From Eledone cirrhosa (lineage: Eukaryota): 64,000 bases of DNA. Both the position numbers and the translations under genes were made by a program. This document shows positions 7,612 to 62,807 of the stretch, piece by piece; position 1 is the first letter of the stretch, and each line of letters begins with the position of its first letter. The notes beneath the pieces were generated by a model, which was not told where the DNA came from, searched no databases, and saw only the letters and a program-made list of their open reading frames with translations. The DNA is taken from positions 51,212,001 to 51,276,000 of the forward strand of contig OZ024745.1 of NCBI GenBank assembly GCA_964016885.1, given 5' to 3'.

Positions 7612-9613
7612 TATATTTATTTGACCGGCCACCTTCCTGGTGGCAAGGTTGTAAAAGAAAAGCAATTGTCATCCATTGAATCGCAAGAATGTTTTGCAAA
7701 TTTTGAAGGTGCCAGCTATCGCAGCCATTTGTAGACTATGAATTGGAGAGCTGGGCTTTTTGTCCGCAAATCCAAGTTCAGTCATACTTTGGTTCAAGCG
7801 GGTTGGTATATTACCCGTAGCTCCAATAATGATGGGTATGAAGCTAAAGGTGTATCTTGGATACTGGATTTGTAAACTCCTCATCAATGGTCCGTAGATG
7901 TCCTCCTTCTTCTGTATTTTTCTGATAACGTTTACATCAAGTGGGCAGCTGATCTCCACAACTGAACACGTTTTCAATGTGTGGTCCCAAACAACAATAT
8001 CAGCCCGGTTGTGCTTTAATTTGGTGGCAGTTTTTATTTTCAGGTTCCACCAGTATTCCTTAGTGCCATCTGTCTCAATATATTCTTCCTCGTTTGTTGT
8101 TCCAGATGGTTCTAGATATCCCATCGTGTCTTATGGGGAGGTAATAGCGAGATGACATTCTTTCGCAGCTGGCAACAATGTGGCTAACATCCTCGATCTT
8201 TGTTTTACATAGCCTACATTTATTGTCAGCTGATGGCCTTCTCCTTTTGTGGAGCAGATATTTGGTAGGGAGTTCTTGTTCCTGTATTGCATAGAGATAT
8301 CCCTCAAAGTGTGATGTCATAAACTTGTCGGAACTCTATGCCAGGCTTTTGAGTGGTTTATCCCCTCTATGGTCTATGTTTTACGTCTCAAGTATCCATG
8401 CACAACTTTTTCTGTAAATTGGTCAATTTTTTCATCTTGTTTGAACATTGAATAGGATCTTCCGATTTCTCTGGGTGAGAGATTTATATCAGGCTTTATT
8501 CCATATCTCTCCTCCAGATCAGTGGCTATTCTAATGATATATTTTTTTTCATGCTCATAAACCTGGGCAAGATGGTTGCCAACCTTTTTCCTCTGTTGAA
8601 GATGTTGTTCAGTGTTACTATCCGGGTCTCATATGATGTTAATATGGACTTTAGACCCGGCCACCTTCCTTGCGTGAGAAGTATAGCCTATCCACATCAC
8701 CATTGATGTTAAAGTTCCCAGTAACACTGAGAAGTTTGCGAGTTCTAACATCCATCTCACTTAGTTCTTGCAATGACCAGTTCAGCAGGCCAAATGTTGG
8801 CGTTAGAATTGGCACAGCATAAGTATTGTGGGCAATGTATTTGTTGTACACTGACAGTTCTGATGACCATATTTTCTTTACTCTTCTGAGGTATTCAGTT
8901 CTGATTCTCTCCTTATTTATGGGTCCATCATATCTGACATTCTCATCCTGTCCAATATATCTGTAGTTGTCACCTGACTGTAGAGGTTGTATTGTCAGGC
9001 CGTTCATCTCTAGATTTCTAGAGGAGGGCACAGCTCTTACACGTTTTACTGCCAAATATGCACACTTGGACTCACCAAATTTCATTTTGATGTCTGTTGA
9101 AAATTGTGTAATGAGGTCCAATTGTTTCTTGATGTCATTGATATTTGGCCCATACAACTTCAGGTCATCAACAAAGAAAAGATGGACCCACTTCTTTGTC
9201 CACCTTGTTTCCTGAGTATGTAAGATAGTGGATTTAGTGCTAGAACGAAGAGTAGCACTGACAAGCTATCACCCTGAAAGATGCCCTTCTGGTAATGTAT
9301 CTTATCAGTCTTAACTTGCTCCTTCTCACCTCTAAGGATCAAATTGTTGTACCAGTTCTTGGTCAGACGTTCAACAACAGCTACCTGTGGCTGTGAGACT
9401 TTGGCTAACTGTAAAGCCTTAACAATCCACCCATGAGGTACACTATCAAATGCTTTTTGATAGTCCAGCCACACCACAGTCATGTTTCTGCGATTCTTTG
9501 TTGTTTTTTCTTGAATCATTTTATTAGTTAGTAGGTTATCTATGCAACCCCACACCTCCCTCTTACCACCAGCTTGCTCAGCTGTTATGATGTTGTTGGT
9601 AGCACAGTGATCA
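7612..9613 (-). mobile_element. 5'-truncated R4/Dong-like non-LTR retrotransposon (RT + CCHC + restriction-like endonuclease), frameshifted
   Basis: WLDYQKAFDSVPH, GIFQGDSLS, YFSRKEGG, CRLC..EDVSHIVASC, RHD and RADIVVWD..VVEISCP..KKEDIY in ORFs 9160-9960, 8651-9157, 8075-8320 and 7669-8124. Confidence 0.9.
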
Positions 9614-9703
9614 TGTATGTATGTATGTATGTATGTATGTATGTATGTATGTATGTATGTATGTATGTATGTATGTATGTATGTGTGTATGTATGTATGT
9701 ATG

Positions 9704-9731
<28 letters not shown>
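9614..9731. repeat. (TATG)n microsatellite
   Basis: Read directly. Confidence 0.95.
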
Positions 9732-9734
<3 letters not shown>

Positions 9735-10118
9735 GGAAAACTCTGATATAACACCTGCAACCCTGATGGTATCCAATGATGTTGACTTGTTCTACTTTTT
9801 GGTAAATATCATCTTGGTTAAGAGAGTGGGACTGGCTTTGTGCAGTGCCTTTGCTCACTATAAAAGATTCACAGCACAGGCATTGCTTTATATCTGGAGA
9901 TCTCTCTGCACTTGTCGTCACATGGTACCATGGTACCATGGGCCCAGCACTATGTGTCAATAATTGTCACAAGTGTAGTGTTTGTACCAGAGTTTTCAAG
10001 TCGCTGGCTGGACTAAAAATTCACACTCGTTCAGCGCATCGGTAGGGATTCTCCTACATGGATATAAAGTAGTGGCCGTACTCGAAAACGAGTTGGCAGC
10101 CACCATTATGTATGTATG
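9732..10118 (+). mobile_element. 3' end of an RTE-type LINE with C-terminal C2H2 finger and short (TATG) tail
   Basis: HKCSVCTRVFKSLAGLKIHTRSAHR* at 9968-10045, short 3' UTR, then tatgtatgtatg. Confidence 0.65.
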
Positions 10119-15423: not shown

Positions 15424-15706
15424 TACATATATAGAGAGGGGGAGAGTTTGGTGTAAATTGATATACATTTCTATTTATTTGCCACCAGGGAATCAAAGAT
15501 TGGGACAAATACAAAGGGGGGAGTTTACATACATTTAAAATGACGTGTAAAAAACATATAACAAATTGAATTTAACAATCGATGTCCTCAATAGGGAGGG
15601 GCGTTGACATGGGTCGCACACACCCCCGAACAAATGTACAACCCTTCTCTTCAGGAGCACAAAGAGCGGGTGCTTCCTTCCTCTTCTCATTCTTCTCCTC
15701 TCTCAC

Positions 15707-18700
15707 CTACAGGCTGATATAGAGAGAAGGCCCATTCACTCGGGCCATTCTCGCTACTTTCACCCACCTTTCATAAAACTTGCTGGGCTAAAGCACCTCT
15801 CTCTCCATTTTGATCCTTCTTCTAAAGTGGTACTTGAAAAAAAAGACCAGTTGTAGGCCGGAGATAAAGGTGTCTGACCTCAGCCCTTTCAACCTTGTCC
15901 ACCATACAACTTCTTTCGCCATAGCTATCACACAGAGGAAAGCCGCCTCTCCTTCGTTTTTGAAAGGGGGAGGCGGTTTGATCGTGACAATGTTTTCGGT
16001 GGTCAACTGGATTGGTCCCACCCGCGACAGTAGTCGTTCTACATAGTCCTACAGGTCAGCAACGCCCGGGCAGTGTACGAATGCGTGTGCGACGGTTTCC
16101 TCATCACGCACGCATCTCGGACAGATCTTCTTCGAGGGGTCCCTACCCGGGCGTCTGTGTCTGTAGAGCTTGTCCCGAACGGGTAGAGCTCCTCGGTAAC
16201 ATTGCCAAGCCAGGGACTTTTGGAAGTTGTCCATCGGTCCCCGGCCAAACGTCCTACCGAACAGACTGGCCAGCTCATCTTCCTCCATGCCCAGAGCCTC
16301 TCCGAGAGCGTCGTCGCACTTACTGCACACCAACCCTCTATAGAGTGTTGAGGTTGAGTCTCCACTGATTGCCGGATCCGCTTGCCAGAGGGCTGTGAGC
16401 GCCTGGGCACATTCAATGTGCCAGTCGCCCACTTTTCTCGGTCTTTGCTTGACCCAGGATTGCAGCTCAGTGAGTGAGACGAGTCTCGGAAAGGCTCGCC
16501 TCACAAACAGGGCCCACACTGGCTGACCGGTGAGGAATACCTGGAGGTGCCGTAGCCTTAATGTGTGTCTACGCATCGTCAGCCACGGCAACCCCAGCCC
16601 TCCGTTCGAAGGGTGTTGACAGCAGATGGATCTTCTCACCAAAGGAACCCGCTTCTTCCAAAGAAATCGGAAGAGCGCGCGCTCCATTTTGGCGAGTGTT
16701 TTCTCTGGGCAAGGCACGACGGTCAAGCGGTAGTAGATGACGGACGCTATATAAGCGTTCGCCACCTCCGCTCGACCTTCCAGGGATAGTTTGCACTCGG
16801 CCCACTTCTGGGCGAGTGCAAACACCTTGCCCGTTACATCGTCCCAGTTTTTCTCCACCTGGAGGTCCGGTCCGAACCAGACCCCAAGCAGCTTCACCGG
16901 TCCCTCCGTCCAGCGTCCGTCGATGCCGTCGGAGGGCATCGTTTTGCCCCTCCACGTCCCGAGTTGCAAACCGACGGATTTGTCCCGGTTCAGCTTGGCT
17001 CCTGTGAACCTTTCATATTCCTCCAGTAAGGTGCCGATCTGCCCGATTTCCGAGGCGCACGACACCATTACTGTCACGTCATCGGCGTAGGCCGACACCG
17101 CTTTCCGCAATCCCGGTTCCAAGGGGATGCCCTGCAACAGCTCCAGCTTCCGCAGTAGTGACTCGAGAGCCAGCACATACAGGAGGGAGGAGAGAGGGCA
17201 TCCCTGTCGGATGGATCGCGTGATTTGGAACGGCTCCGAGAGGTAGCCGTTCACCTTGACCCTCGTGCATCTGTTGCTGCTGTGCATTGCAGCAATCCAG
17301 CCCCTGAAAACGGGTCCGAAGCCTGCCGCCGCGAGCACCGCATCCAGGTACCGATGGTCAACCCTATCGAACGCCTTAGATTGATCCAAGTTGATCAGGG
17401 CCCCACTAAAGCCGGGTTCGTTCCCTACCCTCTCTACGATGTATCGCATGAGGTGGAGGTTGTCGTGTATGGACTTGGACGGGATTGCGCATGTCTGCGC
17501 TTCTCCCACCAGGTTCCCGACGACAAACGCCAACCTCTTCGCTAACACCTTGGCCAAAATCTTTAACTCTGTGTTTAGCAGAGTTATGGGCCTGAAGTTA
17601 TCTATGTCATCCCCCTTGTTCTCGTCCTTCCTCACCAGCGTGACTACGCCCTTGGTCACAGAACTGGGAATTCTCCCGTTCTGTTGCCAGTTGCAGTAGA
17701 CCGCCTCGAGGAGACCGGAGAACAAGCCTGGCATCGCTACATAGAGTTCGTATGGTAGACCATCGAGACCCGGAGATTTGCGTTTGCCGCATTCGCTCAG
17801 CGCTTCCCCTATTTCAGCGCCTGAAATCGGCCTCTCGAAGGACTACGCCTCCCCGTCCGAGAGCCGCGCCAGACCGTCGAGATATGGACCGAAATCCATG
17901 GCCCCACCCGGCCCGTCGCCCCTCCTGAACAGTCGTGCAAAGCGCCGTTGAAAGGCCGCGCTCATCCGCTCAGGTTCAAGGAACACGCGTCCATCCTGGT
18001 CCTTCAAAGACCGAATCGTGGACTTGTTTCCACTTTTTGCCTCTGTCACTCGGGCCCAGCTAACAGCTTTGGCTCCCTCGTTACCCAGAGCACGTATTTT
18101 ACTCCTGACAACGCAGCCCTCGTGCTTCGCATCAAAGAACTGGTCTAGGGCCGTTCTTGACGCCAGCACGCCGGCCACGTTGCCACTCCTAATCGCCTCT
18201 TCTACTCTATTTATTAATTCCCTTTCAGTTCTATTCCTATCTGATGCTAATTCCCGACTAAAACCTATCGATTCTATTCTAATTTCTCTCTTGAGAGAGA
18301 CCCACCACCTGCTGTTGACAATTGCCCCCGTCAAACGCTGCTTAACTAGTGTGCTAATCCGCTTACTGTAAGCTTTGTTTGTCGGTAAAGACAAGTTTAG
18401 CTTCCATTAACCGGGTCCCTGCCTATGAGTTCTATCAAGGTTGACCACTACGGTCACCAACTTGCCGAATAGTCAATCATGAACATTCGTGGACAGCTTA
18501 ATATGTCCCTATCCTTATTTCTAACTAGGAACCTATCTAGGTACGACCTAGATGTTCCGCTGAGATTAGTCCACGTCCACAGTGGCACAGTCGGAAAATC
18601 TAGTCGATATCTATCGGCCAGATCAAATCGGCCGATTAATCGTTTGAGGCTTTTACACCCCTCTCTATCGGGACATGCTCCTACATAGTCCCAACGTGCA

Positions 18701-19140
18701 TCCAGGATAACATTCCAGTCCCCCACTAAAAGCAAGGAGCGAGACGTTCCCAGGAAATTCTCCAGGCGTCGGAAGAAGTCCGGTCGCGGTATCCCAGATG
18801 GGGCATACGCTGCGACCAGCCTGAAAGCTCCACCTTCACCACTGCCGACGTCTAAAACCACCAGTCGACCCTCCGGGTCCAGGTGTACCTTCTGTGTGTC
18901 AAGACCCAGGTATTTTCGCAGCAGAACGACAACCCCACCCCCGCCCCTCGGCTGACAGAGAGATGCGTAGATCTCAAAGTCGTCGAAGATGGGGGCCAGT
19001 TGGCGCTCGCTGCTGATCCTGGACTCGCAAATAACCATTACATCCACTCTGTGCGACCTGAGGTCATTTAAGAGTTTGCCCTGTTTCCAGGACATCCCCA
19101 GGCCGCGTGCATTCACACATCCAACTCTTATATAGGCCAT
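15707..19140 (-). pseudogene. LINE ORF2 (APE endonuclease-RT-CCHC) with at least one frameshift and several in-frame stops
   Basis: NARGL, ICES, GDWN, SYLDRF; KSPGLDG, FRPITLLN, LDQSKAFDRVDH, IRQGCPLS, AYADDV; CPRC..ETVAHAFVHC. Confidence 0.92.
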
Positions 19141-19147
19141 GTTGGTG

Positions 19148-19186
19148 CTGAAGAGTTAAAAAGGAAGAGGAAAGGAAATTACTTAC
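19148..19186 (-). other. Candidate 39-nt GT-AG intron between ORF1 and ORF2
   Basis: AG|GTAAGT-aatttcctttcctcttcctttttaactcttCAG|CACCAACATGG. Confidence 0.5.
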
Positions 19187-19893
19187 CTCTTCGTCTCCTG
19201 GGGACCAGGCTGCACAATTTCCATGGGGGTGTTGGAAGGGTTGTTTGGTGGGGTGGTGGTTTGTGGTGGGGTGAGGACATCAGTGTGTGGTAGGATTAGG
19301 GTGTTTGGTGGGGTGTGGGTGGCTGGTGTGGGAGTGGGGAAACATCTCAATAGGACGTGGTTAAGTGGTTTGGTGCAGTTGGTCCCCACATGCATTGGAT
19401 GGTTCTTTTTGAAAGTTACGTAGGTTTCCGTTGGGACCCTAATCATCATTAGGTGCGGTTTGTTCGCTGCGTAGGTGAAAGTGATCCCTTCGATTTCCAC
19501 CGAAGGGTTATTTTCTATTGCTTTCAATAAAGTTTTATTGTTCTTGTTAATGTATGTATAGAGTTTTTGTTGTGTTGTGTTTGTTTTTGTTTGTTGTTCT
19601 TGTGCGTGTTTGCGTTTTGTAGTATGTGTTATGTTTTGGGGAGGGGTGGTTTTTGTTTGTGATGTTTGTTCTGTTTGTGCTGGTGGTTGTGTGTTTGTAG
19701 CATTTTTGTTAATGTGGTGCCTTTTTTTCCTCTTCACCTGTTGAAAGGGTTCTCCCTCGTCGTCACTGGGTGACGTTGATATGGAGTCCTCTTCCATGTT
19801 GTTGGGGAGGGGTATAAATTGGGGTTTTGTTGTGGTTGCTTTTGTATTTGTTTTAGGTGGGGAGGGGTTGGGTGTAACAGTGTTTTTAAACAA
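19183..19893 (-). CDS. Putative LINE ORF1 (short or 5'-truncated, low complexity)
   Basis: Open frame directly upstream of ORF2; basic FQQVKRKKR patch; true start uncertain (ATG of MEEDS is possible). Confidence 0.6.
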   Translation of the reverse strand: MFKNTVTPNPSPPKTNTKATTTKPQFIPLPNNMEEDSISTSPSDDEGEPFQQVKRKKRHHINKNATNTQPPAQTEQTSQTKTTPPQNITHTTKRKHAQEQQTKTNTTQQKLYTYINKNNKTLLKAIENNPSVEIEGITFTYAANKPHLMMIRVPTETYVTFKKNHPMHVGTNCTKPLNHVLLRCFPTPTPATHTPPNTLILPHTDVLTPPQTTTPPNNPSNTPMEIVQPGPQETKR

Positions 19894-20116
19894 TGTAGGT
19901 CAGGTGGCCGTAATAGTCGGTTTTTATCTGTATTAACTTGCCCATTATTTAGCTTTGTTAGTGTTGTCTTATACACGTATGCTATTGAGGATGAGAAAGA
20001 TAGACAGCTCTCTCATCTAATATAGACCACACAAATTCCACTACAGTGATAAATACTTCATCGGTCAGATAAAAACCGACTATTACGGCCACCTGACCTA
20101 CATTGTTTAAAAACAC
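19880..20116. repeat. Perfect 51-bp inverted repeat (19880-19930 / 20066-20116)
   Basis: Checked base by base. Confidence 0.95.
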
Positions 20117-21802: not shown

Positions 21803-24124
21803 TTATGTAATATTCGGCTTGTAGTGGGAAAAAAGGGTTTTAGTTCTGTGACGGCAGAATAATGTTCGTTCAATTCTGTTATTCAGCAGTTTCTTCTTGT
21901 GTGTGATTATGTAATAAATCTCAAGATTACACAATTTGCAGAAATTTTGGCTCCTGGAAAAGCTTTGGGTTTTAGCTAATTTTTCCCATTTTAGGGTAAA
22001 CTTTTGATTGCTATCCCTGAGCGTCCAAGCTTTCTCTGCTAAAGTTGTTACATTTCTTTGGCTCTGGTGTTTTATTGAGTAAGAATGCCTATACAATCGA
22101 GATTTAAACGATGTTGCCGTTGATCCCACGTAATACCACTCGTTGCCTCCGGATTTAATGGTACACTTATAAATAATATTTTTTTCCAGGCAGTTATTGC
22201 CGAGGGGGCAGTTGTCAGGATAGGTGCAGTTACAGTTGTGTACGTTGGGTTTTCTCTGGAGTAGTATTGCGGACGAACTTAGGTGTGGTTTATTTATGTT
22301 CTGTAGTGTATTGTCTACTGTTTTTTTGGGGTTCTTTGTACTTAAGTTCTTAGTGTTTTCGTTTAACCTTCTAGTATTGATCTTTTTTATGTGTTGTTCA
22401 AGGTTTAACGCTGTAGAGTATGACAGTCTTATAGTGGTAGGGTTTAGGATTTTGTGGTATTTGTGTGATGTGGGAAAATGTCTTTTAATTATTTTAAAGA
22501 AGAGTACTGGTAAATTTGTACTAATGGAGCTATTGTATTCGGGGTTATACCATAAGTACTCTTTGCATCGCTTTCTATTAGTTTTGTTTGTTGGTTTACT
22601 GGTGTGCATACTATGGTAGTAAGTGTGGTTTGGTGTTGTGTTATTATATCTACCTATGTGGGATTTATTTTGGGTGTTTTGATTGTTCCCATCTATGTAC
22701 TCTATTTTGTTGAGGTAGCCTGCTTTACTAAGGGCGTTATCGTAGTACTCGGCGTGTTCCTTAAATACTTGTATGTTAGAAGATAGACCCGAGATTCTAA
22801 GGGAAATATTTTTAGGGATAGATTTAATTATAGAGATGGGGTGGTTAGACCCAACATTTACGTATTTGAGATTTTCATTCAATTTATGAAACGGTTTAAT
22901 CAAACCAGAGTTTAAATTGAGTGTGACATCCAGGAAGTTAACTACTTTAAGGTTGTATTCATATGTTATAGTTAGTCCTATTTCGAGTAGTAGTTTTCTT
23001 ATATCTTTGCGTAGTTTTTCTAGTTTTTGGTTATTAAGGTTTTTAGCTAGGAGGAGAACATCGTCGCGGTATATTCCGCCGTGGAGATTGCTGAATTTTT
23101 CCTGGAGTCTAAAGGCGATAAATAACCCCACAATATCAGTTATTTCCGCCGAATCGTTAGAGCCCATTGTTATGTCAAAGTTAGAGGGTCTATCTTTACG
23201 TACCCAATAACTGTTCTCAAATTTGACTATAGTTTTCCTAGCTTCTAATATAATCTTAATTTCATCGTTTGTAAGGTCGGAGTTATCCTTAGCAAACTTA
23301 ATGGCTCTATTCAAAGTTTCAGGTGATATCGATGAGTAATATTCATCGATATCAAACTGGATAAACTTAGATTTATTCTTATTGCTAATGCTATTAAACC
23401 ATCTTATTGCTTCTTGGGTCTTCCCCCAGAGTTTAATGTTAACCTTAGCCTTAATTTGGGGGATGATTCTATCTAAGATATATTTGCTTATTTTACCTAT
23501 ATCTGATTTAGAGGGGCAGATTAATCTAATTTTAGGGTCATTATCAAAGTTTACCTTGTGGTCCTTAAGATTGAAAGTGGGTACCGCCGGTAAGAGTGGT
23601 CCTGTCCTATCTTCGATTCCGAGATTTTTCACTATTTCGCATGCCTCATCATTGATGTGCTTAAGGGTTATTTCACTCGTTTTTCTATATTTTTTATGTA
23701 ATTCTTTTCGAATGAAGTTGTTGTATGTAGTGCAATCCATAGTGTACAGGTTTGATGTTTTGTCCGCTTTTACTACAATTCCTTTGGTGTTTTTAAGGTC
23801 GTCCAGTAGTTTTTTTATATCTTTCTGTAATTTGCTGTTGGTGTTGCGTCCTTTGAATTTAATTTTAAGGATTAAGTTCATAAGGTCCTGCTCAAATGCA
23901 TCTAATAGTGGGTTGGTGGGTGGGTTTTTACAAGTCCTAAAACCGAATTTTTTGTTTACACCACTTTCTAATGTTGAGTTCATACGGCTTCTATCATAGT
24001 GGAGCGTTTTCCACCTGACACGTCGAATGAATTCATTAGTTTTTTGAATCATGCTCAATAAATATTCCTTTCTACCTTGGGTGGGTATGTTTTTGAGTGA
24101 CATATCCAGGTAGTGTTTTTCCAT
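21803..24124 (-). CDS. Intact PLE polyprotein: RT + C-terminal GIY-YIG endonuclease (773 aa, Naiad-like)
   Basis: SLKNIP, KADKT, QFDIDEYYSSI, FDITMGSNDSAEI, IYRDD, NFLDVTL, SNHP; CNC..CPL..C; NIIYKC..YYVG..FKSRLYRH; CKLC..E; CRH. Confidence 0.95.
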   Translation of the reverse strand: MEKHYLDMSLKNIPTQGRKEYLLSMIQKTNEFIRRVRWKTLHYDRSRMNSTLESGVNKKFGFRTCKNPPTNPLLDAFEQDLMNLILKIKFKGRNTNSKLQKDIKKLLDDLKNTKGIVVKADKTSNLYTMDCTTYNNFIRKELHKKYRKTSEITLKHINDEACEIVKNLGIEDRTGPLLPAVPTFNLKDHKVNFDNDPKIRLICPSKSDIGKISKYILDRIIPQIKAKVNIKLWGKTQEAIRWFNSISNKNKSKFIQFDIDEYYSSISPETLNRAIKFAKDNSDLTNDEIKIILEARKTIVKFENSYWVRKDRPSNFDITMGSNDSAEITDIVGLFIAFRLQEKFSNLHGGIYRDDVLLLAKNLNNQKLEKLRKDIRKLLLEIGLTITYEYNLKVVNFLDVTLNLNSGLIKPFHKLNENLKYVNVGSNHPISIIKSIPKNISLRISGLSSNIQVFKEHAEYYDNALSKAGYLNKIEYIDGNNQNTQNKSHIGRYNNTTPNHTYYHSMHTSKPTNKTNRKRCKEYLWYNPEYNSSISTNLPVLFFKIIKRHFPTSHKYHKILNPTTIRLSYSTALNLEQHIKKINTRRLNENTKNLSTKNPKKTVDNTLQNINKPHLSSSAILLQRKPNVHNCNCTYPDNCPLGNNCLEKNIIYKCTIKSGGNEWYYVGSTATSFKSRLYRHSYSIKHQSQRNVTTLAEKAWTLRDSNQKFTLKWEKLAKTQSFSRSQNFCKLCNLEIYYIITHKKKLLNNRIERTLFCRHRTKTLFSHYKPNIT

Positions 24125-24327
24125 TGTTGTGGTTGCGTTTGCTGTGTGGGTTGCTCGACTTTACAGGAGGTAAATATACAGTATTTTCCGTTGTGTTGTA
24201 ATATAAATATTACACACAGTAGATTATCAGCTCACGTAGAGTTTGCTCGACGGTTCCAGTTGTAGTTCCAAAAGTAATCCGGAGAAAAATAGAAAGATTT
24301 GAATGGATACAGTTTAGTTGAAAGGAA

Positions 24328-25393: not shown

Positions 25394-27325
25394 TTATGTA
25401 ATATTCGGCTTGTAGTGGGAAAAAAGGGTTTTAGTTCTGTGACGGCAGAATAATGTTCGTTCAATTCTGTTATTCAGCAGTTTCTTCTTGTGTGTGATTA
25501 TGTAATAAATCTCAAGATTACACAATTTGCAGAAATTTTGGCTCCTGGAAAAGCTTTGGGTTTTAGCTAATTTTTCCCATTTTAGGGTAAACTTTTGATT
25601 GCTATCCCTGAGCGTCCAAGCTTTCTCTGCTAAAGTTGTTACATTTCTTTGGCTCTGGTGTTTTATTGAGTAAGAATGCCTATACAATCGAGATTTAAAC
25701 GATGTTGCCGTTGATCCCACGTAATACCACTCGTTGCCTCCGGATTTAATGGTACACTTATAAATAATATTTTTTTCCAGGCAGTTATTGCCGAGGGGGC
25801 AGTTGTCAGGATAGGTGCAGTTACAGTTGTGTACGTTGGGTTTTCTCTGGAGTAGTATTGCGGACGAACTTAGGTGTGGTTTATTTATGTTCTGTAGTGT
25901 ATTGTCTACTGTTTTTTTGGGGTTCTTTGTACTTAAGTTCTTAGTGTTTTCGTTTAACCTTCTAGTATTGATCTTTTTTATGTGTTGTTCAAGGTTTAAC
26001 GCTGTAGAGTATGACAGTCTTATAGTGGTAGGGTTTAGGATTTTGTGGTATTTGTGTGATGTGGGAAAATGTCTTTTAATTATTTTAAAGAAGAGTACTG
26101 GTAAATTTGTACTAATGGAGCTATTGTATTCGGGGTTATACCATAAGTACTCTTTGCATCGCTTTCTATTAGTTTTGTTTGTTGGTTTACTGGTGTGCAT
26201 ACTATGGTAGTAAGTGTGGTTTGGTGTTGTGTTATTATATCTACCTATGTGGGATTTATTTTGGGTGTTTTGATTGTTCCCATCTATGTACTCTATTTTG
26301 TTGAGGTAGCCTGCTTTACTAAGGGCGTTATCGTAGTACTCGGCGTGTTCCTTAAATACTTGTATGTTAGAAGATAGACCCGAGATTCTAAGGGAAATAT
26401 TTTTAGGGATAGATTTAATTATAGAGATGGGGTGGTTAGACCCAACATTTACGTATTTGAGATTTTCATTCAATTTATGAAACGGTTTAATCAAACCAGA
26501 GTTTAAATTGAGTGTGACATCCAGGAAGTTAACTACTTTAAGGTTGTATTCATATGTTATAGTTAGTCCTATTTCGAGTAGTAGTTTTCTTATATCTTTG
26601 CGTAGTTTTTCTAGTTTTTGGTTATTAAGGTTTTTAGCTAGGAGGAGAACATCGTCGCGGTATATTCCGCCGTGGAGATTGCTGAATTTTTCCTGGAGTC
26701 TAAAGGCGATAAATAACCCCACAATATCAGTTATTTCCGCCGAATCGTTAGAGCCCATTGTTATGTCAAAGTTAGAGGGTCTATCTTTACGTACCCAATA
26801 ACTGTTCTCAAATTTGACTATAGTTTTCCTAGCTTCTAATATAATCTTAATTTCATCGTTTGTAAGGTCGGAGTTATCCTTAGCAAACTTAATGGCTCTA
26901 TTCAAAGTTTCAGGTGATATCGATGAGTAATATTCATCGATATCAAACTGGATAAACTTAGATTTATTCTTATTGCTAATGCTATTAAACCATCTTATTG
27001 CTTCTTGGGTCTTCCCCCAGAGTTTAATGTTAACCTTAGCCTTAATTTGGGGGATGATTCTATCTAAGATATATTTGCTTATTTTACCTATATCTGATTT
27101 AGAGAGGCAGATTAATCTAATTTTAGGGTCATTATCAGAGTTTACCTTGTGGTCCTTAAGATTGAAAGTGGGTACCGCCGGTAAGAGTGGTCCTGTCCTA
27201 TCTTCGATTCCGAGATTTTTCACTATTTCGCATGCCTCATCATTGATGTGCTTAAGGGTTACTTCACTCGTTTTTCTATATTTTTTATGTAATTCTTTTC
27301 GAATGAAGTTGTTGTATGTAGTGCA
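25394..27325 (-). pseudogene. 5'-truncated second copy of the PLE ORF
   Basis: Near-identical to 21803-23734; ends at the inversion junction. Confidence 0.95.
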
Positions 27326-27365
27326 CTCTTACCGGCGTTGTTGTATGTAGTGCACTCTTACCGGC
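27308..27365. repeat. 29-bp tandem duplication spanning the inversion junction
   Basis: gttgttgtatgtagtgcactcttaccggc x2. Confidence 0.95.
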
Positions 27366-29148
27366 GGTACCCACTTTCAATCTTAAGGACCACAAGGTAA
27401 ACTTTGATAATGACCCTAAAATTAGATTAATCTGCCCCTCTAAATCAGATATAGGTAAAATAAGCAAATATATCTTAGATAGAATCATCCCCCAAATTAA
27501 GGCTAAGGTTAACATTAAACTCTGGGGGAAGACCCAAGAAGCAATAAGATGGTTTAATAGCATTAGCAATAAGAATAAATCTAAGTTTATCCAGTTTGAT
27601 ATCGATGAATATTACTCATCGATATCACCTGAAACTTTGAATAGAGCCATTAAGTTTGCTAAGGATAACTCCGACCTTACAAACGATGAAATTAAGATTA
27701 TATTAGAAGCTAGGAAAACTATAGTCAAATTTGAGAACAGTTATTGGGTACGTAAAGATAGACCCTCTAACTTTGACATAACAATGGGCTCTAAAGATTC
27801 GGCGGAAATAACTGATATTGTGGGGTTATTTATCGCCTTTAGACTCCAGGAAAAATTCAGCAATCTCCACGGCGGAATATACCGCGACGATGTTCTCCTC
27901 CTAGCTAAAAACCTTAATAACCAAAAACTAGAAAAACTACGCAAAGATATAAGAAAACTACTACTCGAAATAGGACTAACTATAACATATGAATACAACC
28001 TTAAAGTAGTTAACTTCCTGGATGTCACACTCAATTTAAACTCTGGTTTGATTAAACCGTTTCATAAATTGAATGAAAATCTCAAATACGTAAATGTTGG
28101 GTCTAACCACCCCATCTCTATAATTAAATCTATCCCTAAAAATATTTCCCTTAGAATCTCGGGTCTATCTTCTAACATACAAGTATTTAAGGAACACGCC
28201 GAGTACTACGATAACGCCCTTAGTAAAGCAGGCTACCTCAACAAAATAGAGTACATAGATGGGAACAATCAAAACACCCAAAATAAATCCCACATAGGTA
28301 GATATAATAACACAACACCAAACCACACCTACTACCATAGTATGCACACCAGTAAACCAACAAACAAAACTAATAGAAAGCGATGCAAAGAGTACTTATG
28401 GTATAACCCCGAATACAATAGCTCCATTAGTACAAATTTACCAGTACTCTTCTTTAAAATAATTAAAAGACATTTTCCCACATCACACAAATACCACAAA
28501 ATCCTAAACCCTACCACTATAAGACTGTCATACTCTACAGCGTTAAACCTTGAACAACACATAAAAAAGATCAATACTAGAAGGTTAAACGAAAACACTA
28601 AGAACTTAAGTACAAAGAACCCCAAAAAAACAGTAGACAATACACTACAGAACATAAATAAACCACACCTAAGTTCGTCCGCAATACTACTCCAGAGAAA
28701 ACCCAACGTACACAACTGTAACTGCACCTATCCTGACAACTGCCCCCTCGGCAATAACTGCCTGGAAAAAAATATTATTTATAAGTGTACCATTAAATCC
28801 GGAGGCAACGAGTGGTATTACGTGGGATCAACGGCAACATCGTTTAAATCTCGATTGTATAGGCATTCTTACTCAATAAAACACCAGAGCCAAAGAAATG
28901 TAACAACTTTAGCAGAGAAAGCTTGGACGCTCAGGGATAGCAATCAAAAGTTTACCCTAAAATGGGAAAAATTAGCTAAAACCCAAAGCTTTTCCAGGAG
29001 CCAAAATTTCTGCAAATTGTGTAATCTTGAGATTTATTACATAATCACACACAAGAAGAAACTGCTGAATAACAGAATTGAACGAACATTATTCTGCCGT
29101 CACAGAACTAAAACCCTTTTTTCCCACTACAAGCCGAATATTACATAA
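27353..29148 (+). pseudogene. Inverted, 5'-truncated third copy of the PLE ORF
   Basis: Reverse complement of 25394-27189; reading frame still open. Confidence 0.95.
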
Positions 29149-59874: not shown

Positions 59875-62807
59875 AAAATGCATTCAAAATTTAACGATAA
59901 AAATCATAGGAAAACAGAGTCAAGATAAATTAATAAAAACAATGAAATAAAAACAAAGAACTGGTTCCTTATATAAAAAACCCATCATTTTACGATCGTT
60001 TCTGGGATATATATGTGTATGTTGGTATGTATATCATATTAAGGATCTATGTAAAAAAAAATTACAAATTATCAGAGGAGATATACATACCTTCACTTAT
60101 ATATGCCATCTTCAGAAATGATGAAGTATGTTTATTGAAAGAAAGTATTAATACAAAAAGTCTGTTTGGGAATAGGTTTTGAATTGACCAATAGAAAAGT
60201 TAGAGGTCAAGTTGATAGAATAACCGTAGTAGAAACTTTATGCTAGGAGTGGAGGAATGTAAATTTATGCTTTGAATGAAAAGGAAGAGAAAGGTAGGGG
60301 ATAAAATGAGGTCAAGTTAATGAGATAGTGAAGGATTCCCCCCAAAAAATAAACATTGATGTTATTAAAGAATGTTGTTAAAAGAATAGGGAAAAGAATG
60401 TTTTGTTGGATGAGTGTGTTAGTGAGAAATACTACGCCTGTTTAAATTTTAAAGAACCTACATACATAAAAGGAAATTAAATTAATTGATAGGTATACTT
60501 ACAGAGTTAAATTATATTAATTCTTATGGAAGTGATAAATAAAGAAGTAAAAGAAATTAAAAAAAATATATATATATAGAAAGACTGAAACAGATAAAAT
60601 TTTATAACTATCTAAACAACCTTAATATTAAAGATATTAATTATATTTATTAATCCTAGGTATTGAACGTGATAGATAGGGGATGTGGTTAAAAGAAGTA
60701 GTGAGGTTAAATATAACTTTAGGTAAAGTGAGCTGCAAGAGGGAAATACAATTATGAAATTCTTTGTAGTAAATATTTATTATAGGTAAACTAAATTAAA
60801 AATAATTATAATAATTTGTAAAATATAAGAGTAAGGTATATATTAATTAAGTTTATAGTATTTGAAGGATTTTTAATTCTATGATTGCATGATATAATTA
60901 ATTCCTGTCGCTTATTTAATAGGATATCATTAGATTTCCTGATTTCAAATAGTTCTTGGGAGCATAACCTACACTCATATCTACTATTTTGATAAGGAGT
61001 GGCCCTTTTGAGCACGTTCCAGGTCAGGTTATAATCAATATCCTTCTTTCTATAATTATTAATTGCTTCAGCCAAGGAGGTTGTATTAGCTAATGCGCCA
61101 TTTTTAAAACTATGTTTGTGGGTATTAAATCTTACTTTAAATTGGCTAGACGTAGCTCCTATATAGGATTGAGTGGAGTCCTTATTACTAACTACACATT
61201 TATAGACTATATTATTAATAAGACAATTTCCCTTTAATGGGCAATTTCTTTTGATTCTACAGTTACAGCCATTCGTAAATATTGCGTCAGGAGAGTTGTG
61301 TTATCTATAGTGGTAATTGTGTTATCTATAGTGGTATTAATGTATGGTATAGAATGGGTTGTAATTAGATTAGTATGGTTAGACAGGTTGTTGGTGGGTG
61401 ATAGTTTAGAGGATGTGGAGCTAGTAGAACTCTGTTTGTTTTGGAGATTATTAGTCAAAGTTGGTGTGGAGTTTACGGGACCTATTATTGGTGTAGAAGA
61501 AGGTGGTTTGTTTAGGTTTACTTTAGTATTATTATGGTTGGTTTGATGTGTTGGTGGTATATTTATGTTTTTTTTTACACTTATATGTGTTGTATATTCT
61601 TGGTAGTGGAGTATGAAAATTTGACAGTAGATCTATTTAAAATTTGATGGTATTTATAGTTTGGTGGGAAATTTTTCTCTAGGATAGCAAATATTTTTTT
61701 TAGGGATATTGTCTTTAATCTGTAGATTCAATGGAGCATTATACCAAGTAACCCGTCTATTACGGTTTCGACATTGTTTCTTATATTTATATCATGTATC
61801 TGGTTTAGTTAGATTAATTGATGTTTTAGTTTGATTACTAGAAATTTTGTTAGATATGTTGTTGACGTATGTAAGAGTTTTAGGGTGAATAGTTTTCTGA
61901 AAGTCATTATCTTTTATGTGAGAAGAGGTAGAGAAATTAAGTTTTGGGTTGGTGTTTTTAGGTGTAGTATGAGTGTCGTTTAGGTGTGGGTTTTTCATTT
62001 GGTGTTTGTTGGTAATATTAGGTTGTATGTTTGAAATATTATTGGTGCAAGGTATATAGACTAATTTGTTCTTATGGCCGCTTCTGGCTAAAGCTTCGTT
62101 ATAAAAGGGCGCGTTTTTATCGAATACATCATGATTTGATGAAACCTTAGAGATTCTGAGTGAGATATTATATGTTAGGATTTTAAGGATAGATTTAGGG
62201 TGATTAGATTGTGAGTGTATGTAATGCAAGTTTTGGTTAGGTTTATGGTAAGGTTGGTAGATACCTGTAGATAGGTCAATAGTTATATCTAGGAAATTGA
62301 CTATTTTACTGGTGTTTTCAAATATAATAGTGAGATTATAATAGTCTTTGAGGAAAGTTCTAATAATTTTTTTATTTCTTTCAATTTCCGATAGGCTAAG
62401 ATTAGTGGATAGAAGAAGACAGTCATCACGATATAAACCATCTTTAAGGTGGGGAAAAGATTAATTAATGTTAAATAGAAGAAAAAGGCCCACAAGATCG
62501 GTAATTTGGGCAGAATCACTAGAGCCCATAGTTATGTCGAAGAGATTACTATATGTATTTCTGGTCCATTACTCCTTCTGAAATTCAAGTTGTGTTTGTC
62601 TAGCGTGCGTGATAATATTGATGTCATCCAATATCTTTAATATTACGGTTGTTTAGATAGTTATAACATTTTATCTATTTCAGTCTTTCTATATATATAT
62701 ATATTTTTTTTTACATTTCTTTTACTTCTTTATTTATCATTTCCATAAGAATTAATATAATTTTAACTCTGTAAGTATACCTATCAATTAATTTAATTTC
62801 CTTTTAT
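59875..62807 (-). mobile_element. Decayed 5'-truncated Naiad-like PLE (family C) with inverted 5' segment
   Basis: FDITMGSSDSAQITDLVG, GLYRDD, SNHP, YIGATS, CRLC..E, SCNH; 62630-62807 is the reverse complement of 60466-60638. Confidence 0.9.
59983..60123 (-). ncRNA. Hammerhead ribozyme of PLE family C with 106-nt stem II domain
   Basis: catcattt-CTGAAGA-tggcatatata..ggtatgtatatc...gatatacatacc..tatatatccca-GAAA-CGATCG-TA-aaatgatg. Confidence 0.85.

What the first reader, a model, noticed from the sequence alone, without database searches (positions are those of the whole stretch)
19135..19195. LINE inter-ORF spacer looks like a mini-intron that fuses ORF1 to ORF2 in frame
Seen on the - strand: AAG AG|GTAAGT, a pyrimidine tract, ttCAG|C ACC AAC ATG GCC. 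The ORF1 stop lies within the consensus donor and a second in-frame TAA lies within the 39-nt segment. Removal gives ..K-S-T-N-M-A-Y.., one ORF1-ORF2 frame. Known: L1-type ORF2 is usually made by reinitiation from unspliced bicistronic RNA, and retrotransposition removes spliced introns. Inference: a splice-controlled ORF1/ORF1-ORF2 switch with unspliced RNA as the transposition template, or an acceptor making an ORF2-only mRNA. Caveats: 39 nt is very short for a metazoan intron, and the TAAC lies too close to the AG to be a normal branch point.
Basis: partly seen in the sequence, partly recalled or inferred. Interest (0 to 1): 0.8.

Follow-up and report, generated by a model that had tools for sequence, protein, structure and literature searches.

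The report
Orphan splice donor between LINE genes
A family of jumping genes (LINEs) with thousands of copies keeps a strong splice-donor signal at the end of its first gene but no steady acceptor, and no copy lacks the supposed intron, so the signal is likely a U1 docking site that would protect the full-length RNA rather than a mini-intron fusing the two genes.

Summary
The 39-nt GT..AG segment is real (19186-19148, minus strand) in a broken, 5'-truncated L1/Tx1-type LINE copy, but it does not behave as a mini-intron. Across 15 subfamilies the acceptor before the ORF2 ATG is present in 8, and in 3 of those the joint is out of frame. No genomic copy lacks the segment (0 against 466, 764 and 2,375 intact junctions in three groups; spliced copies are about 2% of full-length human L1). 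What is conserved is the donor. It is the best or second-best match to this genome's U1 5' end in 14 of 15 subfamilies, sits at the ORF1 end in two different reading frames, and persists where synonymous sites are only 50-60% alike. It is absent from 38 of 38 distant L1/Tx1 relatives. Best reading: an orphan U1-binding site used without local splicing, likely guarding the intronless bicistronic RNA from premature cleavage, as copia and retroviral donors do. ORF2 would then be made by reinitiation. Function is inferred; RNA was not tested.

The parts
15460..19886 (-). 5'-truncated, broken L1/Tx1-type LINE copy (subfamily A)
   Evidence: homology to other copies ends at 19886 while they run on upstream; EN, RT and zf-RVT domains; stops and a frameshift in ORF2
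19183..19886 (-). C-terminal remnant of ORF1, ending E-T-K-R-stop (TAA 19185-19183)
   Evidence: full ORF1 of 596-636 aa with a CCHC knuckle in intact relatives
19179..19189 (-). conserved U1-complementary 5' splice-site motif (cut point would be 19187|19186) overlapping the ORF1 stop
   Evidence: control
19151..19178 (-). CU-rich pyrimidine tract of the inter-ORF spacer; in this subfamily predicted to pair with the purine-rich ORF1 end and cover the exon half of the donor
   Evidence: pyrimidine share 0.69-0.80 in all 26 copies examined; fold z -2.3 in this copy but no consensus structure over 17 junctions
19148..19150 (-).
19138..19147 (-). Kozak-like context and ORF2 ATG
   Evidence: -4 C 15/15, -3 A 13/15, -1 C 14/15, +4 G 13/15
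15707..19140 (-). ORF2 (APE endonuclease, RT, zinc finger), interrupted in this copy; stop TAG followed by G
15460..15706 (-). 3' UTR with AATAAA (15479-15474) and a short simple-repeat tail

Best explanation
The ORF1 end of this LINE clade carries a conserved motif complementary to U1 snRNA, with no steady acceptor and no spliced genomic copies; it likely binds U1 snRNP without being spliced, and would thereby guard the intronless 5.9-kb RNA from premature cleavage and polyadenylation. Shown: the motif, its conservation in two reading frames, its match to this genome's U1, the missing acceptor, the absence of spliced copies. Inferred: U1 binding in cells. Inferred, weaker: that the benefit is suppression of early poly(A) sites, most of which lie in the A-rich end of ORF1 100-500 nt upstream. 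ORF2 would be made from the unspliced RNA by reinitiation across a 29-43-nt pyrimidine-rich spacer onto a Kozak-like ATG.
For: Motif columns over 15 subfamilies: -1 G and +6 T 15/15, +5 G 14/15, -2 A 13/15 (+1/+2 fixed by the anchoring); +3/+4 vary only between A and G, which U1 tolerates. Four-fold sites are 50-61% alike between the deepest lineages and only 33 of 142 are invariant over 8 lineages. The motif lies in phase 2 in 9 subfamilies and phase 1 in 6, so neither a codon nor the stop explains it. +6 T is non-coding in phase 2; +2 T is a Gly wobble base in phase 1, where 1 of 25 shared Gly sites is GGT throughout. U1 5' end read from G000; duplex rank 1 in 11 and rank 2 in 3 of 15. 54 of 57 copies picked by ORF1 protein likeness score 8 or more (two groups only). 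Controls: 0 of 38 distant L1/Tx1 loci; no donor-like site inside ORF2 is shared by more than 2 of 8 lineages. No local splice product among 466, 764 and 2,375 junctions. Precedent: the EVD donor blocks early termination (PMC5580714, section 8); the foamy-virus donor suppresses a poly(A) site (PMC3694450, abstract).
Against: No RNA, U1-binding or mutant data. Poly(A) hexamers upstream are only mildly enriched (22 seen, 14.6 expected; 12 of 15 representatives have one) and are rare in the first kb of ORF2 (4 in 3 of 15), where U1 usually acts. An unused donor can cause nuclear retention and decay (PMC6199362, section 16 part 1), which would harm a LINE. +5 G equals the favoured base after a stop codon in phase-2 subfamilies (recalled). 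A like motif arises inside ORF2 of subfamily M from G-K-L codons alone. Subfamilies are kin and mosaic, so 15 is not 15 independent cases. Predicted local pairing costs 2-14 kcal/mol to open and cancels the U1 duplex in 2 of 15. One representative (N) ranks only 12th.
Confidence: 0.45

Rival explanations
1. The motif is a translation signal plus descent: a strong stop context, a spare stop in a second frame, and a pyrimidine spacer for ORF2 reinitiation; the likeness to a donor is a by-product.
For: All three stop codons occur inside the motif; 8 of 15 have A at +8, which completes a second stop. The Kozak-like context is conserved. Termination-reinitiation is the known route for L1 and SART1 (PMC5972666, passages; PMC3894237, parts 1-2). 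A G-K-L coding stretch gives a like motif.
Against: +5 G and +6 T stay in C, F, G, I, M and P, which lost the second stop; wobble bases match the donor in phase 1; the base after the stop is not conserved in phase 1; neighbours at -9 to -3 are only 6-9 of 15 alike. 0 of 38 distant relatives show it.
Confidence: 0.25
2. The donor is spliced to a distant acceptor and the RNA ends early, giving an ORF1-only mRNA without the 3' tail, as in copia shGAG; such an RNA would not be retrotransposed.
For: A tail-less RNA would leave no genomic copies, so searches do not exclude it. An acceptor-like site about 410 nt into ORF2 passes a simple test in 6 of 8 lineages. The ORF2 stop reads TAG then G in most subfamilies. 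One M copy (L305) has a 346-nt deletion that starts at the donor cut.
Against: No conserved poly(A) hexamer in ORF2. The 410-nt site is coding and not tested against chance. M ends ORF2 with TAA. No ORF2-less joint was found. The L305 end point is CGG in most M copies and CAG in 2 of 28, with no pyrimidine tract, so chance deletion fits.
Confidence: 0.15
3. One reading: a 28-62-nt intron is removed to fuse ORF1 to ORF2, with the unspliced RNA as template.
For: A, B and I keep the CAG and the in-frame joint although the length varies from 28 to 39 nt. With the first YAG up to ATG+30 the joint is in frame in 7 of 15. AGs inside ORF2 codons 4-7 would give 47-62-nt introns, and several subfamilies have TAAC 24-29 nt before them. 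Human introns of 37-65 nt were screened as candidates and 15 of 22 had support for splicing (PMC4463651, abstract).
Against: No YAG up to ATG+30 in E, F, P; out of frame in G, J, K, N, Q. Sister pairs C/G, M/N and Q/I differ in donor phase, and C/G and Q/I keep the same ORF2 AGs. The fused RNA would carry RT and the 3' tail and should be copied, yet 0 of 466, 764 and 2,375 junctions lack the segment against about 2% for human L1 (PMC5860796, section 7). [quoted passage not shown]
Confidence: 0.07
4. A hairpin between the purine-rich ORF1 end and the pyrimidine tract is the selected element, and the motif is its stem end and loop.
For: Positions -3 to +1 are predicted paired in nearly all copies; z -2.3 to -3.2 in A, D2, F2 and K2 against shuffles that keep composition; A and D differ by a compensatory-looking pair.
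Against: Mean z only -1.0 over 26 copies; RNAalifold finds no consensus pair over 17 junctions, and complementarity beats shuffles in 4 of 17.
Confidence: 0.08

Closest known systems
Arabidopsis Ty1/copia EVD GAG-end donor (PMC5580714; abstract and section 8 read)
   Same: A conserved U1 site near the end of the structural gene; there it both splices and blocks premature termination of the full-length RNA.
   Different: EVD is an LTR element with a real intron, acceptor and defined early poly(A) site shown by RNA. Here: a non-LTR element, no steady acceptor, no RNA data.
Foamy-virus and HIV major splice donor as poly(A) suppressor (PMC3694450 abstract; PMC6199362 section 16 part 1)
   Same: U1 binding acts without splicing, and local RNA structure can gate access.
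   Different: Those donors guard a defined LTR poly(A) site near the 5' end. This one lies mid-RNA at the ORF1 stop, with no proven target site.
Human L1 inter-ORF spacer and SART1 stop-start coupling (PMC5972666 passages; PMC3894237 parts 1-2)
   Same: Bicistronic LINE RNA, short spacer, ORF2 probably by termination-reinitiation.
   Different: Spacer of 29-43 nt in any frame, or a 13-nt overlap in C, against 63 nt in L1 and an overlapping stop-start in SART1. The passages read mention no donor at the ORF1 stop.
Human L1 splicing: SpIREs and SpORF2 (PMC5860796 abstract and section 7; PMC2896524 abstract)
   Same: L1-clade RNA with splice signals.
   Different: There, spliced RNAs are seen and retrotransposed (131 of 6,609 full-length copies) and are mostly dead ends. 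Here none was found, and the donor is kept over deep lineages.
L1-Tx1 LINEs of octopods (PMC13282606, passages)
   Same: That annotation lists 13 recently active L1-Tx1 families in Octopus vulgaris; the named ORF1 relatives found here are from Octopus and Argonauta.
   Different: The words splice and intron do not occur in its main text; its supplements were not read.

Membership tests
Spliceosomal mini-intron | GT donor complementary to U1 | tested here: met
Spliceosomal mini-intron | conserved YAG acceptor after the pyrimidine tract | tested here: not met
   8 of 15 subfamilies; 7 of 57 copies
Spliceosomal mini-intron | branch point at a usable distance from the AG | tested here: inconclusive
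   the branch A candidate is 8 nt before the CAG in A; 24-29 nt before AGs inside ORF2 in some subfamilies; no TAAC in F, G, J, M; spacing rule recalled
Spliceosomal mini-intron | conserved frame of the joined product | tested here: not met
   in frame in 7 of 15
Spliceosomal mini-intron | precise loss in retrotransposed copies | tested here: not met
   0 against 466, 764 and 2,375 (counts are lower bounds)
Spliceosomal mini-intron | removal in RNA | not testable with these tools
   needs junction reads or RT-PCR
L1-clade LINE (L1/Tx1) | ORF2 with APE endonuclease, RT and C-terminal zinc finger | tested here: met
   nearest solved structure is human L1 ORF2p, E 2.6e-57
L1-clade LINE (L1/Tx1) | upstream ORF1 with RNA-binding and CCHC motifs | tested here: met
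   CCHC motif seen in the sequence; Atlas look-alikes are CCHC and ZCCHC3-type proteins (a lead); Pfam finds nothing
L1-clade LINE (L1/Tx1) | no LTRs; poly(A) signal and simple-repeat tail; 5' truncation | tested here: met
Tx1 group within the L1 clade | RT phylogeny with named Tx1 references | not tested
   no named references at hand; the label rests on the microsatellite tails and is recalled
copia shGAG-type splice-and-terminate switch | conserved donor at the end of the structural gene | tested here: met
copia shGAG-type splice-and-terminate switch | conserved acceptor and early poly(A) site downstream | tested here: inconclusive
   one candidate acceptor in 6 of 8 lineages; no conserved hexamer
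copia shGAG-type splice-and-terminate switch | short RNA isoform | not testable with these tools
   needs long-read cDNA or 3' RACE
Splicing-independent U1 anti-termination site (retroviral donor type) | strong U1 pairing | tested here: met
   duplex -10 to -13 kcal/mol in 14 of 15
Splicing-independent U1 anti-termination site (retroviral donor type) | usable poly(A) site nearby | tested here: inconclusive
   hexamers upstream in 12 of 15, 22 against 14.6 expected; use not shown
Splicing-independent U1 anti-termination site (retroviral donor type) | early cleavage on donor mutation, rescued by a compensatory U1 | not testable with these tools
   bench test

The most novel reading that the evidence does not exclude
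A clade of octopod LINEs has evolved a dedicated U1 switch at the ORF1 stop: U1 bound gives the full-length transposition template; U1 blocked by the local hairpin, or spliced away, gives a tail-less ORF1-only RNA. This would be a non-LTR counterpart of the copia shGAG and retroviral major-donor strategies, setting the ORF1p-to-ORF2p ratio.
Probability: 0.25. Interest if true: 0.75.

Novelty: new variant of a known kind. Interest (0 to 1): 0.5.

Why it matters
How LINEs make plenty of ORF1p and little ORF2p from one intronless RNA is still open outside a few model elements (PMC3894237, part 2). A strong donor should cost an unspliced RNA its export or its integrity, yet this clade has kept one at a fixed place while the frame, stop codon, spacer and acceptor all changed. 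If it is a working U1 site, a LINE uses the splicing machinery for RNA protection as copia elements and retroviruses do. Intact young copies (subfamily J) make it directly testable. I found no description in print in seven searches (open-access library only; one search gave 0 papers). If it is a by-product, the locus is an ordinary dead LINE copy.

Tried and rejected
RNA: no RNA holder listed. The three listed runs (one sample, kind not on record, contigs with many divergent copies) were laid twice. The short stretch gave two joints, of 56 and 57 nt, neither GT..AG; on the long stretch only 15 of 308 joints were shown. This says nothing on expression or splicing. Protein searches for fused ORF1-ORF2 products: 3 hits for the endonuclease part, 0 for the ORF1 end; 1 of 150 ORF1 relatives also holds an ORF2 piece, a 176-aa fragment that looks like a deletion. 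First metagenome scan and the viral scan were empty. 'Whole ORF2 is an intron ending at its TAG stop': attractive in A, G and J, where the joint restores a stop at once or one codon later, but B-type 3' ends give a long extension, M ends in TAA, and no such copy was found. Covariation of donor phase with AGs in ORF2 codons 4-7: rejected. Universal hairpin: rejected. ORF1 ends in other species: 2 of 12 relatives holding the C-terminal domain end in G-K or G-K-S, among them the Argonauta protein, against 4 of 139 others; this fits the motif but their DNA was not seen, so it is weak. miss joints with C at one fixed place, one search gave hits on four contigs only, and all genome counts are lower bounds. 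One search used 38 of 80 loci (41 had no match to the ORF2 start, 1 lay at a contig end) and looked only 15-70 nt before the ATG. One search used 57 of 60. Earlier findings of the scan: none. No supplementary files were read.

Full report
Observation. The segment is as described: on the minus strand the donor begins at 19186, the CAG ends at 19148, 39 nt in all, the ORF1 stop lies in the donor, and removal would give K-S-T-N-M-A in frame. The copy is dead. ORF2 has stops and a frameshift, and homology to other copies ends at 19886 beside a small element with 51-nt inverted repeats. Intact relatives have ORF1 of 596-636 aa with a CCHC knuckle and ORF2 of 1,139 aa.

What the element is. ORF2 holds an APE endonuclease, RT and a zinc finger, and its nearest solved structure is human L1 ORF2p. 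The 3' end has AATAAA and a simple-repeat tail. It is an L1-clade LINE; the Tx1 label is recalled and was not tested by a tree. The three named ORF1 relatives, of ten looked up, are from Argonauta hians, Octopus sinensis and Octopus vulgaris, so the host is probably an octopod.

These are 98-99% alike, so this is descent. The test needed older lineages. I sampled them by motifs that do not contain the junction: ORF2 start patterns, a distant ORF2 protein and ORF1 C-terminal domains from other data sets. This gave 15 subfamily representatives. ORF2 protein identity to subfamily A runs from 83% down to 56% (49% for a decayed partial copy), and four-fold sites are 50-61% alike between the deepest lineages.

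The acceptor and the fusion do not hold. A YAG before the ORF2 ATG exists in 8 of 15 and gives an in-frame joint in 5 (A, B, D2, H, I; the other D copy lacks it) and an out-of-frame joint in J, K and Q. E, F and P have no YAG up to 30 nt past the ATG. F is young and abundant, about 89 of the first 100 of 318 rows by eye. J is the youngest, with many intact ORF2 frames. Among 57 copies picked through ORF1, 7 have such a YAG. AGs inside ORF2 codons 4-7 would give 47-62-nt introns, but they come with the R-V-G codons and do not change when sister subfamilies C/G and Q/I change donor phase.

No spliced copies. A spliced RNA with RT and the 3' tail should be copied into the genome; about 2% of full-length human L1 copies are spliced (PMC5860796, section 7). 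Gap patterns that would catch any local joint gave, for A/B-type flanks, 2 hits of 26 and 30 nt that keep both ends, against 466 longer ones, and 0 for joints into ORF2 codons 4-7; 0 against 764 for the J group; 0 against 2,375 for M. Searches for the exon end followed by anything else gave 0, 17, 6 and 12 hits. These were point changes, small indels and short duplications, except L305, a 346-nt deletion from the donor cut to a site that reads CGG in most M copies and CAG in 2 of 28, without a pyrimidine tract. That copy is ambiguous. All counts are lower bounds.

The donor does hold. Anchored on the best GT 15-70 nt before the ATG, -1 G and +6 T are kept in 15 of 15, +5 G in 14, -2 A in 13, and +3/+4 vary only between A and G; positions -9 to -3 agree in 6-9 of 15. 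Only 33 of 142 four-fold sites are invariant over eight lineages. The motif is read in phase 2 in nine subfamilies, where it holds the stop (TAA, TGA or TAG), and in phase 1 in six, where it codes G-K, G-R or G-E. It has moved with the ORF1 end where that end was extended (C, M). The U1 5' end of this genome is the canonical one in 8 of 8 genes read, and the site ranks first in 11 and second in 3 of 15 elements among about 240-300 GT sites each. Background is 3.2% per 55-nt window. Of 38 distant L1/Tx1 loci from metagenome contigs none has such a site, and inside ORF2 no donor-like site is shared by more than 2 of 8 lineages. The subfamilies are kin and partly mosaic, so they are perhaps five to eight independent cases.

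Mechanism. I commit to an orphan U1-binding site that works without local splicing and likely guards the intronless RNA against early cleavage (0.45). The precedents are EVD, where a U1 mutant terminates at a cryptic site (PMC5580714, abstract and section 8), and foamy virus (PMC3694450, abstract). Against it: poly(A) hexamers are only mildly enriched upstream (22 against 14.6) and rare downstream; unused donors can hold RNA in the nucleus (PMC6199362, passages and section 16 part 1); and predicted pairing with the pyrimidine tract partly hides the site. The pyrimidine spacer and the conserved Kozak-like context fit reinitiation of ORF2 (PMC5972666, passages; PMC3894237, parts 1-2 of 3).

Length. 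[quoted passage not shown] ORF2-only spliced L1 RNA is known in human (PMC2896524, abstract) but needs an acceptor, which is what varies here. Passages of PMC12129022 and PMC13282606 were also seen and describe no such site.

Verdict. Observation confirmed; interpretation partly supported. The feature worth following is the lineage-specific orphan donor, a new variant of a known kind of U1 use. I found it in none of seven literature searches (listings only, open-access library). Its function is untested. Interest 0.5.

Noticed in passing
window 19880-20116: Small element with perfect 51-nt inverted repeats 135 nt apart, MITE-like; it overlaps the 5' truncation point of the LINE by 7 nt.
   Followed up: partly
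window 21803-24160, 25394-27328, 27322-29148 (minus): Three near-identical Penelope-like ORFs in tandem, the first an open 773-aa frame. Pfam finds nothing; the label rests on recalled RT and GIY-YIG-like motifs.
   Followed up: no
window 60806-62460 and 7669-9966 (minus): Fragments of a second Penelope-like element and of another RT-type element (labels recalled).
   Followed up: no
G000:C1:423365221-423418069; L106, L112: Subfamily J is very young, with many intact ORF2 frames, and forms head-to-tail arrays at about 5.84-kb spacing.
   Followed up: partly
L033-L036: Subfamily C has a 23-nt extension at the ORF1 end, and its ORF1 overlaps ORF2 by 13 nt; some copies carry a duplicated ORF1 end.
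   Followed up: partly
window 15707 and ORF2 ends of L033-L072, L103-L112: The ORF2 stop is TAG followed by G in nearly all subfamilies but TAA in M; 3' UTR types are shuffled between subfamilies.
   Followed up: partly
L305:1520: M copy with a 346-nt deletion starting at the donor cut and joining ORF1 in frame to ORF2 residue ~103; chance deletion or a rare spliced copy.
   Followed up: partly
L272-L300, about 270 nt into ORF2: A second strong donor-like site in subfamily M, arising from E-G-K-L codons.
   Followed up: no
G000:C1128 and C2:180973544-180995099: U1 snRNA genes in tandem arrays with a 2,674-nt period.
   Followed up: no
L147, L148: Two related stretches matching the APE start pattern but with no donor and no match to this ORF1 or ORF2; not identified.
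   Followed up: no
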